A program made the translations under genes and the position numbers. The notes below the pieces were generated by a model. It did not search any database and was not told the DNA's origin. It saw only the letters and a list, made by a program, of their open reading frames with translations. This document shows positions 1-63,101 of a DNA stretch of 64,000 bases, piece by piece. The stretch is from Prevotella sp. (GTDB lineage Bacteria > Bacteroidota > Bacteroidia > Bacteroidales > Bacteroidaceae): the NCBI GenBank assembly GCA_016291085.1, contig JAEEVW010000001.1, positions 64,094-128,093 on the forward strand, in the 5' to 3' direction. How positions within the stretch are numbered: the stretch's first letter is position 1; the number at the start of each line of letters is the position of its first letter.

Positions 1-180
1 TTCCAGCCAAGGCGTTCCGACTTTGTCGCGTGCATCCCAAAGGAATGCGTTTACCTGATCTTGGTGTGCAATGCGCTTGAGCCACGAAACAAGCGGACTG
101 GGAACCCATTTAGCCTTAGAGCCCATCTTGTTTCTTAGTATCTGATCAATGTCAATGGTCTTTGATGTTATTTCTGCCAT
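1..180 (-). CDS. N-terminal part of a lysophospholipid/glycerol acyltransferase-family protein (runs off the window)
   Basis: Own translation from ATG at 180: MAEITSKTIDIDQILRNKMGSKAKWVPSPLVSWLKRIAHQDQVNAFLW..., resembling the Bacteroidetes acyltransferase usually divergent from mraZ; minus-strand TAacTTTG box at 209-216. Confidence 0.6.
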   Translation of the reverse strand, partial: MAEITSKTIDIDQILRNKMGSKAKWVPSPLVSWLKRIAHQDQVNAFLWDARDKVGTPWLE

Positions 181-54891: not shown

Positions 54892-57324
54892 ATGAACGTA
54901 ATTACAAAGACCATTCAATTGCCCGATGGAAGAACCATCACAATTGAGACCGGGAAAGTGGCAAAGCAGGCCGATGGCAGTGTGATGCTCCGCATGAACA
55001 ACACTGTGCTGCTGGCTACTGTTTGTGCCGCAAAAGATGCAGTTCCCGGAACAGATTTCATGCCTCTGCAGGTAGACTACAGAGAGCAGTATGCCGCTGC
55101 AGGACGTTTCCCCGGTGGCTTCACCAAGCGCGAGGGTAAAGCCTCGGACAACGAGATTCTGACCAGTCGTCTGGTCGACCGTGTGCTCCGTCCCCTGTTC
55201 CCCTCCAATTATCACGCAGAAGTTTTTGTCAACGTAATGCTGTTCAGTGCCGATGGTGTTGACCAGCCCGATGCATTGGCAGGTTTTGCTGCATCAGCCG
55301 CGTTGGCATGTTCAGATATCCCCTTCGAGTGCCCCATCAGTGAGGTTCGCGTGGCTCGCGTCAATGGCGAGTACGTCATCGATCCTACCTTCGAGCAGAT
55401 GAAGGAGGCCGACATGGATATCATGGTCGGTGCCTCTGCCGAGAACATCATGATGGTGGAAGGTGAGATGAAGGAAGTCAGTGAGCAGGATCTGCTCGGT
55501 GCCCTGAAGGCTGCTATGGACGCTATCAAGCCCATGTGCGAGTTGCAGGTTGAACTGAGCAAGGAACTGGGCAAGGATGTGAAGCGCGAGTACGACCACG
55601 AGATCAACGACGAGGCACTTCGCGAACGCATGAACAAGGAGCTCTATCAGCCCGCCTACGACATCACTAAGCAGGCTCTCGAGAAGCACGCCCGTGCTGA
55701 GGCCTTCGAGAAGATTTTGGCCGACTTCAAGGAGAAATTCTTCGCAGAGCGCAAAGCTGCCGCTGAGGCAGCAGCCGCCACTGGTTCTCCTGCGGGTGAT
55801 GCCGTCGAGATCTCCGACGACGACTACGAGGCCATGATGGACCGCTACTACCACGATGTAGAGCGCGACGCCATGCGCCGTTGCATCCTCGACGAGGGCA
55901 TCCGTCTCGATGGTCGTAAGACCACCGATATCCGTCCCATCTGGTGCGAGGTTTCTCCCCTGCCCATGCCTCACGGAAGTTCTATCTTCACCCGTGGTGA
56001 GACGCAGTCGCTGACCACCGTGACGCTGGGTACCAAGCTCGACGAGAAGCTCGTCGACGATGTGCTCGACAAGAGCTATCAGCGCTTCCTGCTGCACTAC
56101 AACTTCCCCCCGTTCTGCACGGGTGAGGCTAAGGCACAGCGTGGCGTAGGTCGTCGTGAGATTGGTCACGGACATCTCGCATGGCGTGGTCTGAAGGAGA
56201 TGATTCCTGCCGACTTCCCCTACACCGTTCGTGTCGTCAGCCAGATCATGGAGTCTAACGGTTCTTCCAGTATGGCTACCGTCTGTGCTGGTACGCTGGC
56301 TCTGATGGACGCTGGTGTTCCCATGAAGAAGCCTGTTTCAGGTATCGCTATGGGTCTGATCAAGAATCCTGGTGAAGACAAGTACGCTGTTCTGAGCGAC
56401 ATCCTTGGCGACGAGGACCACTTGGGCGATATGGACTTCAAGACCACCGGTACGAAGGATGGTCTGACCGCTACCCAGATGGATATCAAGTGCGACGGTC
56501 TGTCGTTCGACATTCTCGAGAAGGCACTGATGCAGGCTAAGGCTGGTCGTGAGCACATCTTGAAGTGCATCACCGATACCATCGCCGAGCCACGTCCTGA
56601 GCTGAAGCCCCACGTTCCTCGTATCGAGGCCTTCGAGATTCCGAAGGAGTTCATTGGTGCTGTCATTGGCCCGGGCGGAAAAATCATCCAGCAAATGCAG
56701 GAAGACACCGGTGCTACCATCACCATCGACGAGGAAGACGGCGTTGGCAAGATTCAGGTCAGCGGTCCTAACAAGGAGTCAATCGACGCTGCTATCGCCA
56801 AGATTCGTGCTATCGTGGCTATCCCCGAGGTGGGTGAGGTTTACGAGGGTACTGTTCGTAGCATCATGCCTTACGGATGCTTCGTGGAGTTCATGCCTGG
56901 CAAGGATGGTCTGCTCCACATCTCTGAGATCGACTGGAAGCGTCTCGAGACTGTCGAGGAGGCTGGCATCAAGGAGGGTGACAAGATCACCGTCAAGCTG
57001 CTCGAGATTGATCCGAAGACAGGTAAGTTCAAGCTCTCTCACCGTGTGCTCATCGAGAAGCCCGAGGGCTATCAGGAGCGTCCTGCCCGTGAACGTGGCG
57101 AGCGCCGTGAGCGTCCTGATCGTGGCGAGCGTCGCGATCGTGGCGAACGTCGTGATCGTGGTGATCGTGGTGATCACAATAAAGAACGGAATGGCGAACG
57201 AAGTGAGCGTCGTCCCCGTCCTGAGCGTGGCGATCGTCCCCGTCCCGAGCGCAACGAGGAATACCACGAGCCCACCAACGAGCCCAAGGACTTCACCGAC
57301 GAACTCGACAAGATGGACTTTTAA
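54892..57324 (+). CDS. pnp: Polyribonucleotide nucleotidyltransferase
   Basis: [33 protein letters not shown] and S1 domains. Confidence 0.99.
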
Positions 57325-57326
57325 TG

Positions 57327-57349
57327 AGTTGACAGTTGACAGTTGACAA
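57327..57349. repeat. Heptamer run (AGTTGAC x3)
   Basis: agttgacagttgacagttgacaa just after the pnp stop. Confidence 0.8.
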
Positions 57350-57431
57350 TTTGTCCACTTCATAAACAACTAAAGGTTCTGGCCCAAACAGGGCTGGAAC
57401 CTTTTCACTTAACTAACACTTCATACATTTT

Positions 57432-57950
57432 ATGGAAACAGACAGAATCCGACTTCGCCCGTGGAGCGAAAACGACAAAGAAGCACTTTTCAAGTATGCT
57501 TCTGACCCCGATGTGGGGCCTGGTGCCGGATGGTCACCCCATCAGAGTGTGGACGAAAGTCTCGACATTATCCGCACCCATTTCAGCAACGACCACACCT
57601 GGGCCATCGAACTGAAATCCACCGGTGAAGCCATTGGCGCTATGGGCTATATGCTTTCTGGCGAGAGCAATATCAGCATAGGCGAGAACGATGCCGAGGT
57701 GGGCTATTGGGTCGCCAAGCCCTATTGGAATCAAGGCATTTGCACTGAGGCACTCCGCTTGCTCGTCGACTACTGTGCCAAGCTGAAGACCATACAGAGC
57801 CTCTGGGGCGACTATTTTGTCGACAACCCAGCCTCGGCCCGAGTCATGGAGAAGTGCGGCTTCCGCGAAACGGGCACAACAAGCTATTGCTCCCACCTCT
57901 ATGGCGGAAGCAATCGTCCTGTGAAAATCTTGAAATTGGAATTGAAGTAA
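57432..57950 (+). CDS. RimJ/RimL-type GNAT acetyltransferase
   Basis: RLRPW, EVGYWVAKPYWNQGICTEA, NPASARVMEKCGF. Confidence 0.9.
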   Translation: METDRIRLRPWSENDKEALFKYASDPDVGPGAGWSPHQSVDESLDIIRTHFSNDHTWAIELKSTGEAIGAMGYMLSGESNISIGENDAEVGYWVAKPYWNQGICTEALRLLVDYCAKLKTIQSLWGDYFVDNPASARVMEKCGFRETGTTSYCSHLYGGSNRPVKILKLELK

Positions 57951-57956
57951 TCCCAA

Positions 57957-58017
57957 AGAGGGGGTGACCTTACTCGAAGGTCTAATCTATCACAATACCC
58001 CTCTCTGTTTCCCTGTT
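57957..58017. terminator. Hairpin between convergent GNAT and hicB
   Basis: AGAGGGGGT...ACCCCTCTCT with inner GACCT/AGGTC. Confidence 0.5.
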
Positions 58018-58429
58018 ACTTGATGCTAAGCAATGCCTGTCCTATAGCGTGGATACCATCAAGTATTTTTTGTCTTTGCTTGGCGCTGGGGCGCTTGAAG
58101 CCATTGGCATAATTGCTCAGAAGACGTTCATTAATTCCTGTAGCACGTGCAATAGCAGCAATCGTTGTCATACCTTCTAAACTCTGAAGCAGCGACGCGG
58201 TATCTGTTAAGCACCATTTAAATTCATAGTCGCCATCGACCAACCACTGAGGAACTTCGTCACCATCCTCAATCATTCCCTGGATATGAAACTCGAGCGA
58301 TTCTTTTACTTCCTTCTTTAGCTTGGAGTATGTCTTTGCGGTGACCAACACAACTCCAGGGACATTCCCACCTAATGTAGCGGCAAAATTCTTATTGCAC
58401 CATTCTACTTCAACTTTAATTTTTTGCAT
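58016..58429 (-). CDS. hicB: HicB-family antitoxin with C-terminal HTH
   Basis: MQKIKVEVEW..NFAA..VPG..TAKT..LKKEVKESLEFHI; IAAIARATGINERLLSNYANGFKRP. Confidence 0.88.
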   Translation of the reverse strand: MQKIKVEVEWCNKNFAATLGGNVPGVVLVTAKTYSKLKKEVKESLEFHIQGMIEDGDEVPQWLVDGDYEFKWCLTDTASLLQSLEGMTTIAAIARATGINERLLSNYANGFKRPSAKQRQKILDGIHAIGQALLSIK

Positions 58430-58459
58430 TACATTCGGCTCTTTTGTTATTTCCGGGTG

Positions 58460-58510
58460 CAAAGGTAGTAAAAATAATACTTATCTCCAAACTTTTTGAG
58501 TATTATTTTT
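58460..58510 (-). promoter_or_regulatory. hicB promoter with inverted-repeat operator
   Basis: TACCTTTG box (58460-67, minus); AAAAATAATACT-N17-AGTATTATTTTT. Confidence 0.65.
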
Positions 58511-58532
58511 AATACTTTTATTATTTTTCTAC

Positions 58533-58580
58533 AAAAATGGGCGAAAATAGGGGGACACCCCCTAAAATCGCCCATAGATC
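58533..58580 (-). terminator. Intrinsic terminator after hicA-2
   Basis: ATGGGCGA..TAGGGGG/CCCCCTA..TCGCCCAT with minus-strand U-tract. Confidence 0.8.
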
Positions 58581-58600
58581 AACAGCAATATAATATTTCG

Positions 58601-58807
58601 TTACCTTCTAGGAAATTTAATTCCTGCTTGTGACTCAATGGAACGGAGTAAGCATACTGGGACGTCATCATTCATTTTATGACCACTTACAGTCACCAAT
58701 CCAGGCTTTGTAGAGTGTCTATATTGACGGTGACTACCTCTTTGTCTTACTAAATACCATCCATCCTTCTCGAGGATACGAATCACTTCACGAACGTTAT
58801 AAACCAT
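58601..58807 (-). CDS. hicA: HicA-family mRNA interferase (copy 2)
   Basis: REVIRILEKDGWYLVRQRGSHRQYRHSTKPGLVTV; start refined to MVYNV. Confidence 0.93.
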   Translation of the reverse strand: MVYNVREVIRILEKDGWYLVRQRGSHRQYRHSTKPGLVTVSGHKMNDDVPVCLLRSIESQAGIKFPRR

Positions 58808-58996
58808 ACAAGAAACACTAAATAAAGGGTTGGACAAATTGTGAATTCTCCTATTGGATGCATCCTCCTATTATGCGTTTTGGACTAGGAAATCCGTAAG
58901 AAATAATTTCATAATTTACTCTTTTCTTTAATGTTTAAATTTTTTTTAATGCTTTTTTTTTAAAATATTCGCATTTCCGTATGGTATTGATGGTCT

Positions 58997-59025
58997 TAAT
59001 CGCTATTAATCCAAGTGCAAAGATA
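58997..59025 (-). promoter_or_regulatory. hicA-2 promoter with conserved +1 motif
   Basis: CAAAGATA box 59018-25; TAATCGCTATTAATC 58997-59011. Confidence 0.7.
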
Positions 59026-59117
59026 CAGTTTAATAATCAATAATCCAAGACTTTTTAAATAATTAACTTTTAGAACACATTCAGTTCTGGAATAGAATGA
59101 GGAAAGCTGAAATGGTG

Positions 59118-59164
59118 AAAAAGTGGGCGAAGTAGGGTAGACCCATGCACTTGCCCACTGATCG
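59118..59164 (-). terminator. Intrinsic terminator after hicA-1
   Basis: AGTGGGC..GGGT/ACCC..GCCCACT with U-tract; homologous to 58533-58580. Confidence 0.8.
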
Positions 59165-59174
59165 ATAGCGATAA

Positions 59175-59426
59175 TCAAACAACAATGTCACGAAAACGTA
59201 AGCCGGTATTATTTTGGATGTTTGCGATAATTCCCCGAGGGAGCTCATGCGACAATTTTCCAGCAACAGTAATCACATGTGGATTACCTGCTTTATGAAA
59301 TTGACGATGATCGCCACCCCCCATAGGAGCCATTATCCAACCATTTTGCTCTAAAGCCCAAATGATTTCAGACACCCTAAACACCTTCTTTTGTTTTCTC
59401 CCTTTTTGTTTTCTTTTGTTTGCCAT
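59175..59426 (-). CDS. hicA: HicA-family mRNA interferase (copy 1) with basic N-terminal extension
   Basis: SEIIWALEQNGW..GGGDHRQFHK..VITVAG..ELPRGIIANI. Confidence 0.85.
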   Translation of the reverse strand: MANKRKQKGRKQKKVFRVSEIIWALEQNGWIMAPMGGGDHRQFHKAGNPHVITVAGKLSHELPRGIIANIQNNTGLRFRDIVV

Positions 59427-59485
59427 ATTCCAAATCTAAATATGTTGTTCACTAAACATCATAGTTATAGAATGGAACATAGGAC

Positions 59486-59513
59486 TAATCGCCATTAATC
59501 GGTTGCAAAGATA
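59486..59513 (-). promoter_or_regulatory. hicA-1 promoter with conserved +1 motif
   Basis: CAAAGATA box 59506-13; TAATCGCCATTAATC 59486-59500. Confidence 0.7.
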
Positions 59514-59615
59514 TATGTTTTTCTCCTTTCTACCTAAAAACAATGAAAAAAATTTGTGTGTATTTGTTTTTTTTTCTATTTTTGCACTTAGAAAGCAATT
59601 TAAATCCTAAACTAT

Positions 59616-62600
59616 ATGTCACATATTTCATCCATCTTAGAGCCAGAGTACGCTGCAATATTAAAGGCTCGTTTCTGCAAACAGTATATGCCTAGTTTGA
59701 AAGAGTTTTTATCGGATTTTGATATTTCTGAAACGCTCACCGATGATAAACAGGCCTGTAATTCTTTAAAAATGCACTTCCTATTGGATAAGTATGACGA
59801 TATTAAGCAGAAAGATGAGGGAAAAAGAAAAAAACAGATCAAAAAATTGAAAGAGAATTGTAAGTGGCATATTAAAAATGTTACAGACGAAGAATTGTTA
59901 TTAGCAATCGAAGAATTTTTCTTTATTACAGAGAAGACAGATAAAATTAATGAGGCCAAGAATAACAATAGCCAGGTTCTTGATGAAAAGAATACTATAA
60001 GCGGAAAAAGAAACAAGTTATTAGAAAATTTGTTCAAATATGGATTTAAAGGTGACGAGCAGTCCAGTATTGCAGATACAACAATGTTTGCTATTGCTGA
60101 GTATTTTGGAATAAAAAAAGAAATACAAGATTTAGGAAAGTTATTTGAAACATATGAATGTATTGCATATGCTTTGAAAGAAAAGAATCCTGAAGAATCT
60201 GGAGTCTGGCAGTTCCATAATGCACTGAGGTTATTTAGTTGTGTTAGAAATGGTGTAGTACATCCTGATTTTCAATATGATGGTGAAAAATTAACTCGTT
60301 ATCATGAGTTTATAATTTTTACTTATATTGGATATGTTTTGGCTTGTCGTAGAATATGGAAGGCCTTTAATTATGAGCCAATATTGTCAGCAATGCTTAA
60401 ATATAACAAAGAAAAGGATGAGATTGAAAGAGCAAAAACACTAACGTTATTTGAATTTCCGAAAGAATCAAAGAAGGATTTTAGCTTGCCCGCAGAAACA
60501 GTTGAAATAAGAATAGAAAAAGGACATCGAAATATCAAAATAAACAGTAAAGATGAAGATGGAAAGGTTATCAAAGTTAATAGGTTTAATGATGATGACA
60601 ATCATTATTTCATAAAAGTCTGCAAATATAAAAAATTCACAATTCATATTACGTGTGACGATAGCACTGTGCCTCTTGTTATCGAAGACGAGCTGGATTA
60701 CAATTCTTGGTTTTTTTGTTACAAAGTTATTCTGCCAGATAATTGGACTCCGTCATCTATAGAGTATGAAAATCTGAGCAAAGGAACACAGAAATTGATA
60801 TCCGTAGTTGCTAATTCGGTTAATCAAACCATTCGCGAAGAAATTAAGAATGCCATACAACATGAACTAGCTGCACTTCAGCCACTTTTCCAACTAGCAA
60901 AAGATGGTACCAAAGATCAAGAAGAATTAGATAACTCTTTAAATGAGATCTTGGTTCAGTTAAAAAATGTCGGTAATACGACTGATGATACAAAGAATCA
61001 GATAGAACAAATTCATCTACAAATTGGTGGTTTGCATAAAAGATTTTTGGGTAGGCTCGATGAGTTTTCTGACAGTTTCTATGATTTAAAAGAGAAGAAT
61101 AAGATTATCGTTGAGAAAGTAGATACCCTAATTGAATTTGCTAAGCAAAACAGGAAGTTTATATGGACTGCTACCTCTGTTATAGGACTGGGCTTTGTTT
61201 GTTGTATCTTATTCAATTTTGATTCTTTGCAATCTCCTATCTTATCATCCTTCAAGATTCTTGTCATTATAATTCTTATAGTCAGTTCCTATTGCCTTTA
61301 TAGGCAATCTAAACCGCTAAGATTTATTAAAGGTAAATTAACGCGTTTTATTGCTTTGGGGCTTATCGTGCTATTTTCTTGGTTTGGTTTAAAATGCGCA
61401 ATTGATACGGGGAGGGAATTCTTTGTCAATCATTGTTATGATTTTGCCGAAAAAGATCCTGAAAGGAATCAGGAAGTTGCCAATCTCATGGAATCAATAT
61501 TAGAATCTAATCCTAATGATGAAGAGACGAGAATGAAATTGACAAGATACTATCTTGACTATGCTAATGATGCAGAAAAAGCATTCATAATAGCAAGCCC
61601 CATGCTTGACGATATTGAAAAACATCCAAGGGGCATTTTGGCAATTATTGAAGCTCTATATAGCCAAGGGAAGGACTTTTGGAAGGTTCGCGATCTTCTT
61701 GAGAGTTATAAGAAAACTAACGACTGTGATTCAAATGTTGTTAATCGGATAGAAGGAATTATGAATGTTTGGGGACAAGGTCAGACAAGTAATATTAATA
61801 AGGGTTTTAGTTTACTAAGATTGTCTGCTGATAATGGTGATATAGAGGCCCAATATTACCTTGGTTATGCCCTATCACATGAGATGACTGATTGGGAAAA
61901 ATCAAAATTGTCAGGACATGTAGAAACTTCTGAATTTGACCTGATTACTAGTATTGAATATCTACGCAAAGCTGCCATATACAAACCAAAAGCAGCATTG
62001 GAACTTGGGCGTTTGTATGCAGATCTAAATGTTAGAGATAGTGCTGAGGTATATCTAAATAAGGCAAGATTACATTCAAGTGGTGAATTATACAAGGAAT
62101 CTTTGTATAGATTAGGATTACTATACGAAGGTACGGATGAAGGAAATCAATTCATAAAGAAAGCTGCTTTTTTGGACTATGTGCCAGCTATACTATATAA
62201 GGCCAATAAAGAAGACGATCATAAGTCTGCTATAGAGTTGTATAATAGTCTAGATGGCTATCATGGATATAGATATATTTTACCCATAGCATTTCATCAT
62301 TTGGCATTAGGACAAAGAAATAAAGCATTGAAGGCTTTACAGGATGGAAGACCTTTTGGAAAATTCGATATGAACTTCATCGTTGGAATAGATTCTATTA
62401 TGCATTCATATGATGATGCCCAACAAGCAAAAAGCCAAGCAGATTCTTTGTTAAAAGAACACTGGAATCTTTTAGCAAAAAAAGATTCTACAGCCGCAAT
62501 GAAATATATAATGGAGTCTGCGAAACAAGGTTGTCTTTATGCCGAAATGATTTGTGTTTTCAGAGATGCAGAGCGTAATGGAACTTCAGATCGTCAAGCA

Positions 62601-63101
62601 TTTAGGCTAACAGAAATAGGTGAAGAAATTCCTTTTGCCTATGTTCTTCTTTCTTATCTTGCTCATAAAGAGGAACGTTTTATGTCTTTGGGGTTCCCCT
62701 TTTCTGATTATTTTGCGAATCAAGCAATTGGGAAAGGACATCCTGCTGGGAGACTGATGCTTGATGTCCCCTCCTATTATCTTGATTATATTCAAAAATC
62801 AATAAGTAATAAAGGTTTTGCTGCATATCAATATAATATAAGACAAAGAGCACTGCGCATAAACAAAAACAAACGTTTGAATATAATATATAGTTATAAA
62901 GCTGAGAAAACTATAACTGATAATAAATTAGAAGCTAAGAGTTATAACTTCTGGGATTATGTCAGTAGGGCCAACAATGTTGATTTACATGAACTAAATA
63001 TGGATCCCATTGTATTTCCAGAAATATCAGATATCGAACTGCTAAATGAATTTAGTGACAAAATCATAGACAATCAGCAAGAAACACCTTTTATAAAATA
63101 A
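59616..63101 (+). CDS. 1161-aa membrane protein: HEPN-like RxxxxH domain, beta domain, coiled coil, 3 TM, Sel1/TPR repeats
   Basis: RNGVVH at aa 211-216; heptad region ~385-512; TMs ~515-535, 542-562, 578-596; Sel1-like SADNGDIEAQYYLG, KAALELGRLY, ESAKQGCLYA; promoter TATTTTTG 59577-84. Confidence 0.75.
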   Translation: MSHISSILEPEYAAILKARFCKQYMPSLKEFLSDFDISETLTDDKQACNSLKMHFLLDKYDDIKQKDEGKRKKQIKKLKENCKWHIKNVTDEELLLAIEEFFFITEKTDKINEAKNNNSQVLDEKNTISGKRNKLLENLFKYGFKGDEQSSIADTTMFAIAEYFGIKKEIQDLGKLFETYECIAYALKEKNPEESGVWQFHNALRLFSCVRNGVVHPDFQYDGEKLTRYHEFIIFTYIGYVLACRRIWKAFNYEPILSAMLKYNKEKDEIERAKTLTLFEFPKESKKDFSLPAETVEIRIEKGHRNIKINSKDEDGKVIKVNRFNDDDNHYFIKVCKYKKFTIHITCDDSTVPLVIEDELDYNSWFFCYKVILPDNWTPSSIEYENLSKGTQKLISVVANSVNQTIREEIKNAIQHELAALQPLFQLAKDGTKDQEELDNSLNEILVQLKNVGNTTDDTKNQIEQIHLQIGGLHKRFLGRLDEFSDSFYDLKEKNKIIVEKVDTLIEFAKQNRKFIWTATSVIGLGFVCCILFNFDSLQSPILSSFKILVIIILIVSSYCLYRQSKPLRFIKGKLTRFIALGLIVLFSWFGLKCAIDTGREFFVNHCYDFAEKDPERNQEVANLMESILESNPNDEETRMKLTRYYLDYANDAEKAFIIASPMLDDIEKHPRGILAIIEALYSQGKDFWKVRDLLESYKKTNDCDSNVVNRIEGIMNVWGQGQTSNINKGFSLLRLSADNGDIEAQYYLGYALSHEMTDWEKSKLSGHVETSEFDLITSIEYLRKAAIYKPKAALELGRLYADLNVRDSAEVYLNKARLHSSGELYKESLYRLGLLYEGTDEGNQFIKKAAFLDYVPAILYKANKEDDHKSAIELYNSLDGYHGYRYILPIAFHHLALGQRNKALKALQDGRPFGKFDMNFIVGIDSIMHSYDDAQQAKSQADSLLKEHWNLLAKKDSTAAMKYIMESAKQGCLYAEMICVFRDAERNGTSDRQAFRLTEIGEEIPFAYVLLSYLAHKEERFMSLGFPFSDYFANQAIGKGHPAGRLMLDVPSYYLDYIQKSISNKGFAAYQYNIRQRALRINKNKRLNIIYSYKAEKTITDNKLEAKSYNFWDYVSRANNVDLHELNMDPIVFPEISDIELLNEFSDKIIDNQQETPFIK

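What the first reader, a model, noticed from the sequence alone, without database searches (positions are those of the whole stretch)
58016..59513. Two self-contained hicA cassettes and one separately transcribed hicB
Seen: each hicA has its own TAnnTTTG promoter, the same +1 motif TAATCGC(C/T)ATTAATC (TAAT-N4-ATTA dyad), and a homologous terminator (AAAA.TGGGCGAA..TAGGG..CCC..GCCCA..GATC); the two HicA proteins are highly diverged (GSH vs GDH, one with a KRKQKGRKQKK extension). hicB has its own promoter and a different operator. Known: canonical hicAB is bicistronic. Inference: a modular toxin array controlled by one antitoxin or by another regulator, with conserved non-coding frames around diversified toxins.
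Basis: partly seen in the sequence, partly recalled or inferred. Interest (0 to 1): 0.65.

Follow-up and report, generated by a model that had tools for sequence, protein, structure and literature searches.

The report
Self-locking stand-alone hicA toxin cassettes
In a rumen Prevotella-type bacterium, two hicA toxin genes are separate one-gene units whose conserved ends should let each toxin messenger RNA pair head-to-tail and hide its own start codon, a control style known from a different class of toxins, while the antitoxin gene hicB has its own self-regulated promoter.

Summary
Both hicA genes (PF07927, 32% identical) have a TAnnTTTG promoter box, a shared 15-nt motif and a related hairpin plus T-run. 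Motif and hairpin occur nowhere else in the 3.6-Mb genome.

The same frames surround 25 distinct hicA cassettes in related rumen Prevotella contigs. The cargo is always hicA, in arrays of 0-3 cassettes before one hicB.

The "+1 dyad operator" is better read as RNA. It is the 5' arm of a 12-14 bp helix with a box just before the terminator. In that helix G-U outnumbers A-C 57 to 9. Cognate arms pair better than non-cognate ones. The helix appears in the minimum-energy fold of 20 of 21 full transcripts.

An "anti-start" element next to the 5' arm pairs with the AUG and codon 2, with compensatory changes.

hicB keeps the palindrome-bearing promoter that drives the whole hicAB operon in canonical relatives.

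My reading is an uncoupled HicAB module whose toxin mRNAs carry a lock like that of type I toxins. No transcript data could be obtained.

The module flanks a hypervariable gene for a HEPN (RNase-motif) membrane protein; in relatives that gene is Cas13b. This is a new variant of a known kind.

The parts
58016..58429 (-). hicB: 137-aa antitoxin-type protein with an N-terminal HicB-like domain and a C-terminal Xre-type helix-turn-helix
   Evidence: Pfam matches are only sub-threshold (HicB_lk E=0.053, HTH_3 E=0.026). Homologues carry PF15919 or are named HicB. The AlphaFold model has pLDDT 93.7. Its best-ranked PDB matches are HicB3 6u0i and the antitoxin 3k6q, though weak (E about 0.01, TM 0.34-0.38; probability 0.96-1.0); Xre/C-protein HTH folds follow.
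58455..58516 (-). hicB promoter and operators. O1 is the palindrome AGTATTAAAAATAATACT (58516..58499). The -33 TTTG lies within 58493..58485. O2 is AGTATTATTTTTACTACC (58481..58464) and overlaps the -7 box TACCTTTG (58467..58460). Predicted +1 is about 58455.
   Evidence: The region is nearly invariant in 14 loci, and the perfect palindrome is unique in the genome. The same layout drives the whole hicA-hicB operon in the canonical relative L054.
58533..58575 (-). hicA-1 intrinsic terminator: nested G+C hairpin followed by UUUUU
   Evidence: The hairpin is conserved with compensatory changes in type-B cassettes.
58576..58589 (-). hicA-1 3' box AUUGCUGUUGAUCU, the 3' arm of the end-to-end helix
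58601..58807 (-). hicA-1 coding sequence (type B HicA, with the GSH motif)
   Evidence: PF07927 E=5e-21. Match to 4c26/6g26 HicA at E=7e-12. dN/dS 0.19-0.42.
58803..58812 (-). hicA-1 start region CUUGUAUGGU, which pairs with the anti-start element
58860..58877 (-). Conserved block CGCAUAAUAGGAGGAUGC inside the otherwise variable 205-nt leader of hicA-1; function unknown
   Evidence: Alignment of three type-B cassettes
58977..58985 (-). hicA-1 anti-start element ACCAUACGG
   Evidence: Pairs with the AUG region in the minimum-energy fold. Duplex energy is -8.8 kcal/mol here and -18.8 and -19.5 in the orthologues.
58999..59025 (-). hicA-1 -7 box TATCTTTG (59025..59018), predicted +1 at about 59013, and 5' box GGAUUAAUAGCGAU (59012..58999)
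   Evidence: The TAnnTTTG box spans -12 to -5 in Bacteroidota (PMC9723704).
59118..59158 (-). hicA-2 intrinsic terminator: hairpin followed by UUUUU
59158..59172 (-). hicA-2 3' box AUCGCUAUCGAUCAG, the 3' arm of the end-to-end helix. The fold extends the helix over the stop codon.
59175..59426 (-). hicA-2 coding sequence (type A HicA, with the GDH motif and a K/R-rich N-terminal extension)
   Evidence: PF07927 E=2e-8. Match to 4c26 at E=9e-4. dN/dS 0.19-0.45.
59422..59431 (-). hicA-2 start region GGAAUAUGGC, which pairs with the anti-start element
59474..59485 (-). hicA-2 anti-start element GUCCUAUGUUCC
   Evidence: duplex -12.2 kcal/mol
59488..59513 (-). hicA-2 -7 box TATCTTTG (59513..59506), predicted +1 at about 59501, and 5' box CGAUUAAUGGCGAU (59501..59488)
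59577..63101 (+). Divergent neighbour: -7 box TATTTTTG (59577-59584) and a 1161-aa protein (59616..63101) with a conserved N-terminal RNxxxH (HEPN-type) motif, transmembrane helices and Sel1/TPR-like repeats. It belongs to the locus context, not to the cassettes.
   Evidence: Nucleotide identity with L001 ends at 59521.

Best explanation
This is a HicA/HicB toxin-antitoxin module in which toxin and antitoxin expression have been uncoupled.

**hicA cassettes.** Each hicA is an autonomous one-gene cassette.
- A Bacteroidota-type promoter (TAnnTTTG) starts the transcript 1-2 nt before GAUUAAU.
- The first 12-14 nt (5' box) pair with a 3' box that directly abuts the terminator hairpin. The whole 385- or 482-nt mRNA is thereby closed into a panhandle.
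- The next element downstream of the 5' box (the anti-start) pairs with the AUG and second codon.
- The full-length toxin mRNA is therefore predicted to be compact, long-lived and poorly translated. This is the logic of type I toxin mRNAs such as hok and aapA1, applied here to a type II protein toxin in a phylum that does not rely on Shine-Dalgarno pairing.

**hicB.** It is transcribed separately from the ancestral hicAB operon promoter. That promoter keeps two palindromic operators (AGTATTA-N4-TAATACT type), presumably bound by HicB's own Xre-type HTH.

**Array and role.** One HicB presumably serves a variable set of 0-3 HicA cassettes of four types. The module sits in a low-GC island at the edge of a hypervariable defence-gene slot and probably acts as a toxin arm or addiction module there.

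**Shown by computation:** the genes, the frames, their uniqueness and conservation, the complementarity, the G-U bias, the covariation, the folds and the promoter homology.

**Inferred:** the transcription start and end points, the effect on translation and stability, neutralisation by HicB, and the biological role.
For: **Anatomy and uniqueness:**

**Conservation and cargo.** The 5' motif found 3 genuine species genomes (a fourth hit, Thermincola, lacks hicA and looks like chance) and 14 metagenome contigs. Every complete case is followed by a hicA homologue. Only 2 of 401 genomes of the genus carry a variant of the motif.

**End-to-end helix.**
- In 23 distinct 5'/3' combinations, positions -1..10 give 205 Watson-Crick, 57 G-U, 9 A-C and 5 other pairs.
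- On 25 rows, 89.7% of cells are paired against 21-65% when partners are slid. Covariation score and percent paired were reached by 0 of 500 shuffles.
- RNAalifold finds the helix unaided.
- Cognate duplexes average -16.0 kcal/mol, non-cognate -14.0 (permutation p=5e-5) and shuffled -5.2.
- The helix has 9-10 of 10 pairs in the minimum-energy fold, with pair probability 0.88 or more, in 20 of 21 full transcripts of 325-499 nt.
- The window's mRNAs fold at -121.9 kcal/mol (z=-6.3) and -126.6 kcal/mol (z=-4.8), both as panhandles.
- Pairing begins at position -1/-2, exactly where a TAnnTTTG box spanning -12..-5 puts +1 (PMC9723704).

**Anti-start helix.** AUGGGA pairs with UCCCAU, AUGAGA with UCUCAU and AUGGAA with UUCCAU. 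It is 82% paired, and 3 of 6 pairs changed on both sides.

**Coding genes.** dN/dS is 0.1-0.45 at dS 0.3-2 or more. The catalytic His is kept.

**hicB unit.** The promoter and operators are conserved in 14 loci and match the operon promoter upstream of hicA in the canonical relative L054. HicB homologues at 55-63% identity sit 19-34 nt after hicA.

**Other.** The genome holds no other hicA or hicB. An internal hicA terminator that raises the toxin:antitoxin ratio is published for IncI2 plasmids (PMC11878559). 5'-3' pairing that keeps a toxin mRNA stable and inert is published for aapA1 (PMC5416894).
Against: - There are no transcript data.
- The helix sequences are highly conserved, so true double-sided covariation is limited to about 3 pairs per helix. 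The shuffle test can be inflated by relatedness.
- The second GAUURA repeat (positions 10-15; G, U, U invariant) is more conserved than the helix needs. This leaves room for a protein-binding role.
- The 3' arm lies upstream of a terminator hairpin that would block the 3' trimming which activates hok and aapA1, so how the lock would open is unknown.
- No antisense promoter was found.
- The simple terminator scanner did not call these bulged hairpins.
- All data come from MAGs and metagenome contigs of a narrow lineage.
Confidence: 0.62

Rival explanations
1. The 5' motif is a DNA operator at +1. HicB or another repressor binds GATTAAT-N3-GATTAA, and perhaps also the inverted copy at the 3' end to loop the DNA, so both hicA promoters are repressed together. 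On this view the RNA complementarity is a by-product of two copies of one binding site.
For: The motif overlaps the predicted +1, the classic place for a toxin-antitoxin operator. The second GATTRA repeat is nearly invariant although only partly used in the helix. HicB has an Xre-type HTH. This could coexist with the RNA role.
Against: - The 3' box is not a faithful inverted copy. It differs systematically at positions 6, 7 and 10, always in the G-U-compatible direction (57 G-U against 9 A-C). That is unexpected for a protein site.
- Flanking positions -1 and -2 covary.
- hicB's own promoter carries a different, perfectly palindromic operator (AGTATTA-N4-TAATACT), inherited from the operon promoter of canonical relatives. 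That operator is absent from the hicA promoters.
- The hicA motif is a direct repeat, not an inverted one.
Confidence: 0.2
2. The conserved frames are recombination handles. The inverted boxes and shared terminators let cassettes be duplicated, deleted or swapped, by homologous or site-specific recombination as in an integron-like array, and have no regulatory role.
For: - Cassette number varies from 0 to 3, and four HicA types occur in different orders before one conserved hicB.
- Leaders and terminator variants are mosaic between types.
- L050-L053 keep a 5'-box remnant without hicA.
- An earlier scan note (e1-5219105) describes repeat-mediated deletion of a hicA in another genome.
Against: - No integron core sites are present: the 3' box GTTAATC/GTTGATC does not fit GTTRRRY.
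- Each cassette has its own promoter and terminator.
- Frames keep type-specific features across genomes (for example UGGAUUAAUAG in all type-B cassettes) and are not homogenised within an array.
- Recombination does not explain the G-U bias, the anti-start/AUG covariation, or why the helix starts at +1.
- Recombination between frames probably happens, but as a consequence.
Confidence: 0.1
3. The hairpins are weak, and the three genes are read through as one hicA-2/hicA-1/hicB polycistron. The module would then be an ordinary hicAB operon with a duplicated toxin gene and internal secondary promoters.
For: The generic terminator scan did not call the hairpins. Co-transcription persists across the published internal hicA terminator (PMC11878559). 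No transcript data are available.
Against: - Both hairpins are long, G+C-rich and followed by five U.
- They are conserved with compensatory changes.
- A complete promoter with -33 and -7 boxes and two operators lies between hicA-1 and hicB.
- The hicA-1 to hicB spacing is 171 nt, against 0-35 nt in most canonical relatives (one 83 nt).
Confidence: 0.08

Closest known systems
HicA^T B operons of IncI2 plasmids, with an internal intrinsic terminator between hicA and hicB (Lin et al. 2025, PMC11878559)
   Same: hicA precedes hicB, and a hairpin terminator after hicA separates toxin transcript levels from antitoxin transcript levels.
   Different: On the plasmids there is one hicA, the hairpin sits in a 24-bp gap, the genes are still co-transcribed, and no 5'-3' pairing is reported. 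Here there are full stand-alone cassettes (1-3 of them), a 171-nt spacer holding a complete autoregulated hicB promoter, plus the end-pairing and anti-start helices.
E. coli K-12 hicAB with promoters P1 and P2 (Turnbull and Gerdes 2017, as cited in PMC11878559; otherwise from my own knowledge)
   Same: Expression of HicA and HicB is differentially controlled. HicB represses through an operator at a promoter, and one transcript yields HicB but not HicA.
   Different: In E. coli a single bicistronic unit achieves selectivity through a leader that is too short. Here the transcription units are physically separate and the toxin mRNA folds on itself.
Type I toxin mRNAs with 5'-3' long-distance pairing: hok/Sok fold-back inhibition and aapA1/IsoA1 of Helicobacter pylori (PMC5416894, PMC9841398)
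   Same: The toxin mRNA is monocistronic, its two ends pair, and the translation start is sequestered. The full-length form is predicted or shown to be stable and translationally inert.
   Different: Those toxins are small membrane peptides, the antitoxin is an antisense RNA, activation is by 3' trimming, and the hidden element is a Shine-Dalgarno sequence. Here the toxin is a HicA RNase with a protein antitoxin, no antisense promoter is seen, the 3' arm is protected by the terminator, and the AUG with codon 2 is what is hidden.
Cas13-triggered activation of type II RNase toxins as backup defence (LshCas13a in E. coli, PMC11042736)
   Same: It links a HEPN RNase effector functionally to type II mRNA-interferase toxins. 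Here hicA cassettes are physically linked to Cas13b or to a HEPN membrane protein.
   Different: The published link is indirect, involves unlinked chromosomal toxin-antitoxin loci, and is heterologous. No genetic linkage or dedicated toxin cassettes were described.

Membership tests
HicA toxin family (PF07927) | HicA domain over the Pfam gathering score | tested here: met
   75 bits and 34.6 bits against a cut-off of 27. PDB HicA 4c26/6g26 matched at E=7e-12 and 9e-4.
HicA toxin family (PF07927) | Catalytic histidine (H24 of B. pseudomallei HicA) in the G-S/D-H motif | tested here: met
   GSH (His25) in HicA-1 and GDH (His39) in HicA-2 align with the H24A position of 4c26.
HicA toxin family (PF07927) | Growth arrest by mRNA cleavage when expressed | not testable with these tools
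   Needs expression in a laboratory strain. Purifying selection (dN/dS 0.1-0.45) only shows that the genes are maintained.
HicB antitoxin family | N-terminal HicB-like (partial RNase H-like) domain | tested here: inconclusive
   Pfam HicB_lk reaches only E=0.053, and a profile against PDB HicB3 only E=0.88. However, homologues carry PF15919 or the HicB name, and the best-ranked structural matches are HicB3 6u0i and antitoxin 3k6q, with weak scores (E about 0.01, TM 0.34-0.38; probability 0.96-1.0).
HicB antitoxin family | C-terminal DNA-binding domain and an operator at its promoter | tested here: met
   Xre-type HTH fold hits at probability 0.97-1.0. Two conserved palindromic sites flank the -33 and -7 boxes. 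Binding itself was not tested.
HicB antitoxin family | Binds and neutralises the cognate HicA | not testable with these tools
   It is the only HicB-like gene in the genome.
Canonical type II toxin-antitoxin operon | Toxin and antitoxin co-transcribed from one autoregulated promoter | tested here: not met
   At sequence level, hairpin plus U-run follows each hicA, a full promoter and operators precede hicB, and the gap is 171 nt. Relatives at 55-63% HicB identity are canonical. Transcript evidence is lacking.
Type I toxin-antitoxin systems | Toxin mRNA locked by 5'-3' pairing with a sequestered translation start | tested here: met
   Predicted and supported by covariation, but not probed experimentally.
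Type I toxin-antitoxin systems | Antisense or divergent small RNA antitoxin, and a small hydrophobic peptide toxin | tested here: not met
   No TAnnTTTG promoter lies on the opposite strand within 57.9-59.7 kb except that of the large gene. There is no Rfam hit. The toxin is a HicA RNase. It is therefore not filed as type I; it only works like one at the mRNA level.
Integron gene-cassette array | attC sites with RYYYAAC / GTTRRRY cores, promoterless cassettes, an adjacent intI | tested here: not met
   The 3' boxes GTTAATC/GTTGATC do not fit GTTRRRY, and every cassette has its own promoter and terminator. No systematic search for an integrase gene was made.

The most novel reading that the evidence does not exclude
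The locked hicA cassettes may be a dedicated second-stage RNase arm wired to the neighbouring HEPN effector, which is Cas13b in L028, L034 and L044 and the HEPN membrane protein with Sel1 repeats here.

When the effector fires on infection, bulk RNA and translation collapse. The short, unstructured hicB message and HicB are no longer renewed. The compact panhandle hicA mRNAs then outlast them, or are opened by an effector cut, and HicA is made.

This would give a genetically linked backup abortive-infection step. It would also make the defence gene hard to lose. It would be a type II toxin using a type I-style RNA timer, coupled to CRISPR-Cas13 or HEPN immunity.
Probability: 0.15. Interest if true: 0.85.

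Novelty: new variant of a known kind. Interest (0 to 1): 0.68.

Why it matters
Type II toxin-antitoxin systems are usually described as one autoregulated operon in which a labile protein antitoxin sets the control. RNA folding of the toxin message is regarded as the hallmark of type I systems.

This locus suggests that a protein-toxin family can adopt the type I solution: a stand-alone toxin mRNA with paired ends and a hidden start codon. It does so in Bacteroidota, where translation starts without Shine-Dalgarno pairing, and here the AUG itself is what is hidden.

It offers a compact and testable model with two short helices and clear compensatory mutations. The questions it opens are how toxin translation is gated in this phylum, how one antitoxin can serve a changing set of toxins, and why such modules sit beside HEPN/Cas13b effectors.

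The lineage is narrow (a few rumen Prevotella species), so the generality is unknown.

Tried and rejected
- **Rfam**, at permissive threshold over 57.0-60.5 kb: only a sub-threshold 6A hit.
- **PADLOC**: no meaningful hit for any of the four proteins.
none found. It is always hicA, plus one chance hit in Thermincola.
- **Generic sigma-70 and terminator scan**: uninformative for this phylum and for bulged hairpins.
- **Antisense promoter** for a type I-style RNA antitoxin: none by the TAnnTTTG consensus.
- **HicB by sequence alone**: weak. It needed homologues and a structure model.
- **My idea that the L028 type-C cassette reads into the CRISPR array**: dropped. The repeat orientation matches cas13b, so hicA is convergent.
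- **Cas13b in the window's own genome**: not found, but the control genomes were also silent, so this negative is weak. The window's large protein shows no similarity to Cas13b.
- **Concerted evolution as the cause of frame conservation**: rejected, because frames keep type-specific features across genomes.
- **Survey of hicA in 25 relatives**: mostly canonical tight hicA-hicB pairs. Several loci were mis-oriented and were not analysed further.
Full report
**1. What is in the window**

On the - strand between 58016 and 59513 lie three small genes.
- hicA-2 is 59175..59426 (83 aa).
- hicA-1 is 58601..58807 (68 aa when started at the ATG).
- A 137-aa gene lies at 58016..58429.

Both upstream genes match Pfam HicA_toxin above threshold: 34.6 and 75 bits against a cut-off of 27. 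They match solved HicA structures 4c26 and 6g26. In those alignments His39 and His25 fall on the catalytic H24 position. The two proteins are 32% identical.

The third protein reaches only sub-threshold Pfam scores: HicB_lk E=0.053 and HTH_3 E=0.026. Other evidence supports a HicB assignment.
- Homologues at 54-59% identity carry PF15919 or are named HicB-family.
- An AlphaFold model from 22 homologues has pLDDT 93.7.
- Its best-ranked PDB matches are HicB3 (6u0i) and the antitoxin 3k6q, with weak scores (E about 0.01, TM 0.34-0.38). Xre/C-protein helix-turn-helix domains follow for the C-terminal part.

The genome (3.63 Mb, 96.6% complete) has no other hicA or hicB detectable by tblastn. G+C falls from about 54% to 30-42% from 58000 onward, so the module lies in a low-GC island.

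**2.

Each gene is preceded by a Bacteroidota -7 box: 59513..59506, 59025..59018 and 58467..58460.

The motif GATTAATRGCGATTA (coding strand) follows both hicA boxes. With 0 or 1 mismatch it occurs nowhere else in the genome. The related hairpin plus T-run after each hicA, together with its ..GATC.. flank, is also unique to these two places.

**3. The frames are conserved far beyond this genome and always carry hicA**

HicB relatives at 78-99% identity come from red deer, roe deer, cattle and other rumen assemblies. Scanning species genomes and JGI metagenomes for the promoter plus motif gave 3 genuine genome hits and 14 metagenome contigs. A fourth genome hit, in Thermincola, looks like chance. 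Every complete case is followed by a HicA homologue.

Twenty-five distinct cassettes fall into four HicA types.
- Type A is the kind of the window's hicA-2.
- Type B is the kind of hicA-1, with a 205-230 nt leader.
- Type C mostly lacks the catalytic His.
- Type D has the GDH motif.

Arrays hold one to three cassettes before one conserved hicB: A+B here, A+C+B, A+C, A alone or D alone. Some contigs have none.

dN/dS within types is 0.1-0.45 while dS is 0.3 to more than 2. The coding regions are therefore old, selected genes, and the near-invariant flanks are under their own constraint.

The architecture is rare. It is present in 2 of 401 genomes sampled from the genus and in three species genomes when searched by the hicB promoter pattern.

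**4. What the frames are: an RNA end-to-end helix**

In every cassette a box GCYRTTRATC lies immediately before the terminator hairpin. It is the reverse complement of the 5' motif.

I anchored the two boxes and counted pairs in 23 distinct 5'/3' combinations. Positions -1 to 10 gave 205 Watson-Crick, 57 G-U, 9 A-C and 5 other pairs. Transitions on a DNA inverted repeat should give G-T and A-C about equally. The 57:9 bias fits pairing in the sense-strand RNA.

Further tests agree.
- On a 25-row alignment, 89.7% of cells pair, against 21-65% when partners are slid. No shuffle of 500 reached the observed pairing or covariation score. Double-sided changes occur at positions -2, -1 and 9, for example U-A, G-C, G-U and A-U at position -1.
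- Cognate box pairs bind better than non-cognate ones: -16.0 against -14.0 kcal/mol (permutation p=5e-5). Shuffled boxes give -5.2.
- I folded whole predicted transcripts of 325-499 nt. This 300-480 nt-range helix appeared with 9-10 of its 10 pairs in the minimum-energy structure, at pair probability 0.88 or more, in 20 of 21.
- RNAalifold recovers the helix together with the terminator stem.
- The window's two mRNAs fold as panhandles: -121.9 kcal/mol (z=-6.3) and -126.6 kcal/mol (z=-4.8).

In flavobacteria the TAnnTTTG box occupies -12 to -5 (PMC9723704; the motif is also described for Bacteroides in PMC7366714). That places +1 at about 59501 and 59013, which is 1-2 nt before the helix. Pairing in the alignment decays exactly upstream of that point.

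**5. A second helix hides the start codon**

Right after the 5' box lies an element that pairs with the AUG and second codon. The pairs found are UCCCAU with AUGGGA, UCUCAU with AUGAGA, and UUCCAU with AUGGAA. In type B this pairing spans the long leader, with duplex energies of -8.8 to -19.5 kcal/mol.

In a fixed register on 15 short-leader cassettes, this helix is 82% paired and 3 of its 6 pairs changed on both sides. Both helices together are 90.2% paired, against 26-49% when slid.

In the window the elements are 59485..59474 with 59431..59422 for hicA-2, and 58985..58977 with 58812..58803 for hicA-1. The helix covers the AUG that opens the K/R-rich extension of HicA-2, so that extension is probably translated.

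**6. hicB is a separate, ancestral transcription unit**

Between the hicA-1 terminator and hicB lie several elements.
- A perfect palindrome, AGTATTAAAAATAATACT, which is unique in the genome.
- A -33 TTTG.
- A second, related site that overlaps the -7 box.

All of these are nearly invariant in 14 loci.

In relatives whose HicB is 55-63% identical, hicA sits 19-34 nt before hicB. In the one such locus where the palindrome scan found it (L054), the same promoter and operator layout lies upstream of hicA. Among the interpretable hicA loci in 25 related genomes, most are likewise followed by a hicB-like ORF within 0-35 nt.

So the window's lineage kept the autoregulated promoter for hicB alone. 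The toxin genes moved into upstream cassettes that lack that operator.

**7. Mechanism proposed**

Toxin and antitoxin are uncoupled. hicB is autoregulated through its HTH. Each hicA is transcribed on its own into a closed mRNA that hides its start and is predicted to be stable but poorly translated.

This is the logic of hok and of aapA1, where 5'-3' pairing makes the full-length message stable and inert (PMC5416894). An internal terminator after hicA that raises the toxin:antitoxin ratio is known from IncI2 plasmids (PMC11878559). There, however, the genes remain co-transcribed and no end pairing is described.

Several things remain inferred: the start and end points, the effect on translation and stability, neutralisation of both toxins by the single HicB, and how the lock would open. 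The 3' arm is shielded by the terminator, and I found no antisense promoter.

**8. Rivals**

- **A DNA operator at +1** cannot be excluded and may coexist with the RNA role, because the second GATTRA repeat is more conserved than the helix needs. It does not explain the G-U bias, the systematic differences between the two arms, the covariation, or why hicB's own promoter uses a different palindrome.
- **Recombination handles** would explain the variable cassette number and the mosaics, but not the RNA-specific signals. No integron-type core sites are present.
- **Read-through as one polycistron** cannot be ruled out without transcript data.

**9. Context**

The cassettes lie divergent to a 1161-aa protein (59616..63101). 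It has a strictly conserved RNxxxH motif, transmembrane helices and Sel1/TPR-like repeats. Homologues at 26-58% identity occupy the same place in most related loci.

The window and the red-deer MAG L001 are 97.5% identical from 56000 to 59521. They are unalignable beyond that point, 8 nt upstream of the hicA-2 promoter box. The module therefore borders a swap-prone gene slot.

In L028, L034 and L044 the neighbour is Cas13b (NF038190, E=2e-149, 1e-83 and 2e-84). In L028, two hicA cassettes with no hicB in the 13 kb fetched bracket cas13b and a six-repeat CRISPR array.

Cas13a activity is reported to activate type II RNase toxins indirectly as a backup defence (PMC11042736). This makes a functional link plausible but unproven.

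**10. Verdict**

The array is modular, hicB is separate, and the genome offers a single antitoxin gene, but the "operator" is mainly an RNA element.

This is a new variant of the HicAB kind, with type I-like control of the toxin mRNA. It is restricted, so far, to a few rumen Prevotella lineages.

Noticed in passing
L028:954-6834; L034:1-1935; L044:1-1929: In some relatives the large gene divergent to the hicA cassette is Cas13b (NCBIfam NF038190, E=2e-149, 1e-83, 2e-84). In L028 a type-D and a type-C hicA cassette bracket cas13b and a CRISPR array of six 36-nt repeats. No hicB lies in the 13 kb fetched.
   Followed up: partly
window 59616-63101: The 1161-aa neighbour has a strictly conserved (L/V)RNxxxH motif (RNGVVH at aa 211) followed by a conserved CRRxW stretch, then transmembrane helices and Sel1/TPR-like repeats. 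Homologues at 26-58% identity flank hicA arrays in most related loci. It shows no similarity to Cas13b.
   Followed up: partly
window 59521: Nucleotide identity with the red-deer MAG locus L001 (97.5% over 56000-59521) stops abruptly 8 nt upstream of the hicA-2 -7 box. The large gene beyond that point is a different, only 32%-identical version, so there is a recombination breakpoint at the edge of the hic module.
   Followed up: partly
L050:2250-2500 (also L051-L053): hicB with its full promoter and operators is kept, but no hicA ORF is present. Only a remnant of the 5' box (TAATTAATGGCGATTGATC) lies upstream, and a WYL-domain gene lies downstream. HicB may therefore have a role independent of HicA.
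   Followed up: no
L002:1941-2380, L003:2533-2900, L017, L018, L020-L022, L026-L028: Type-C HicA cassettes are under purifying selection (dN/dS 0.1-0.38), but most have lost the catalytic histidine (GNxxFYRH, GRRSYYQH and similar in place of GDH/GSH). They may be non-catalytic RNA-binding paralogues.
   Followed up: no
window 58860-58877: A block CGCAUAAUAGGAGGAUGC is conserved in the otherwise variable 205-230 nt leaders of type-B cassettes. It contains an AGGAGG directly fused to an AUG that opens a tiny, variable ORF of 6-15 codons. Its function is unknown.
   Followed up: no
window 59438-59431: A further TAnnTTTG match (TAGATTTG) lies on the - strand 4 nt before the hicA-2 AUG. If used, it would give a nearly leaderless hicA-2 mRNA without the 5' box and anti-start. 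It may be chance.
   Followed up: no
window 59488-59497 and 58999-59001 region (positions 10-15 of the 5' motif): The second GAUURA repeat of the 5' motif is almost invariant (G, U, U in 25 of 25), although only its first two bases pair consistently in the end-to-end helix. This points to an extra constraint: a protein site, a junction geometry or an alternative pairing.
   Followed up: partly
window 54892-57950: The normal-GC flank holds polynucleotide phosphorylase (810 aa, with a long R/E/D-rich C-terminal tail) and a GNAT acetyltransferase (PF13302). The drop to 30-42% G+C starts at hicB.
   Followed up: no
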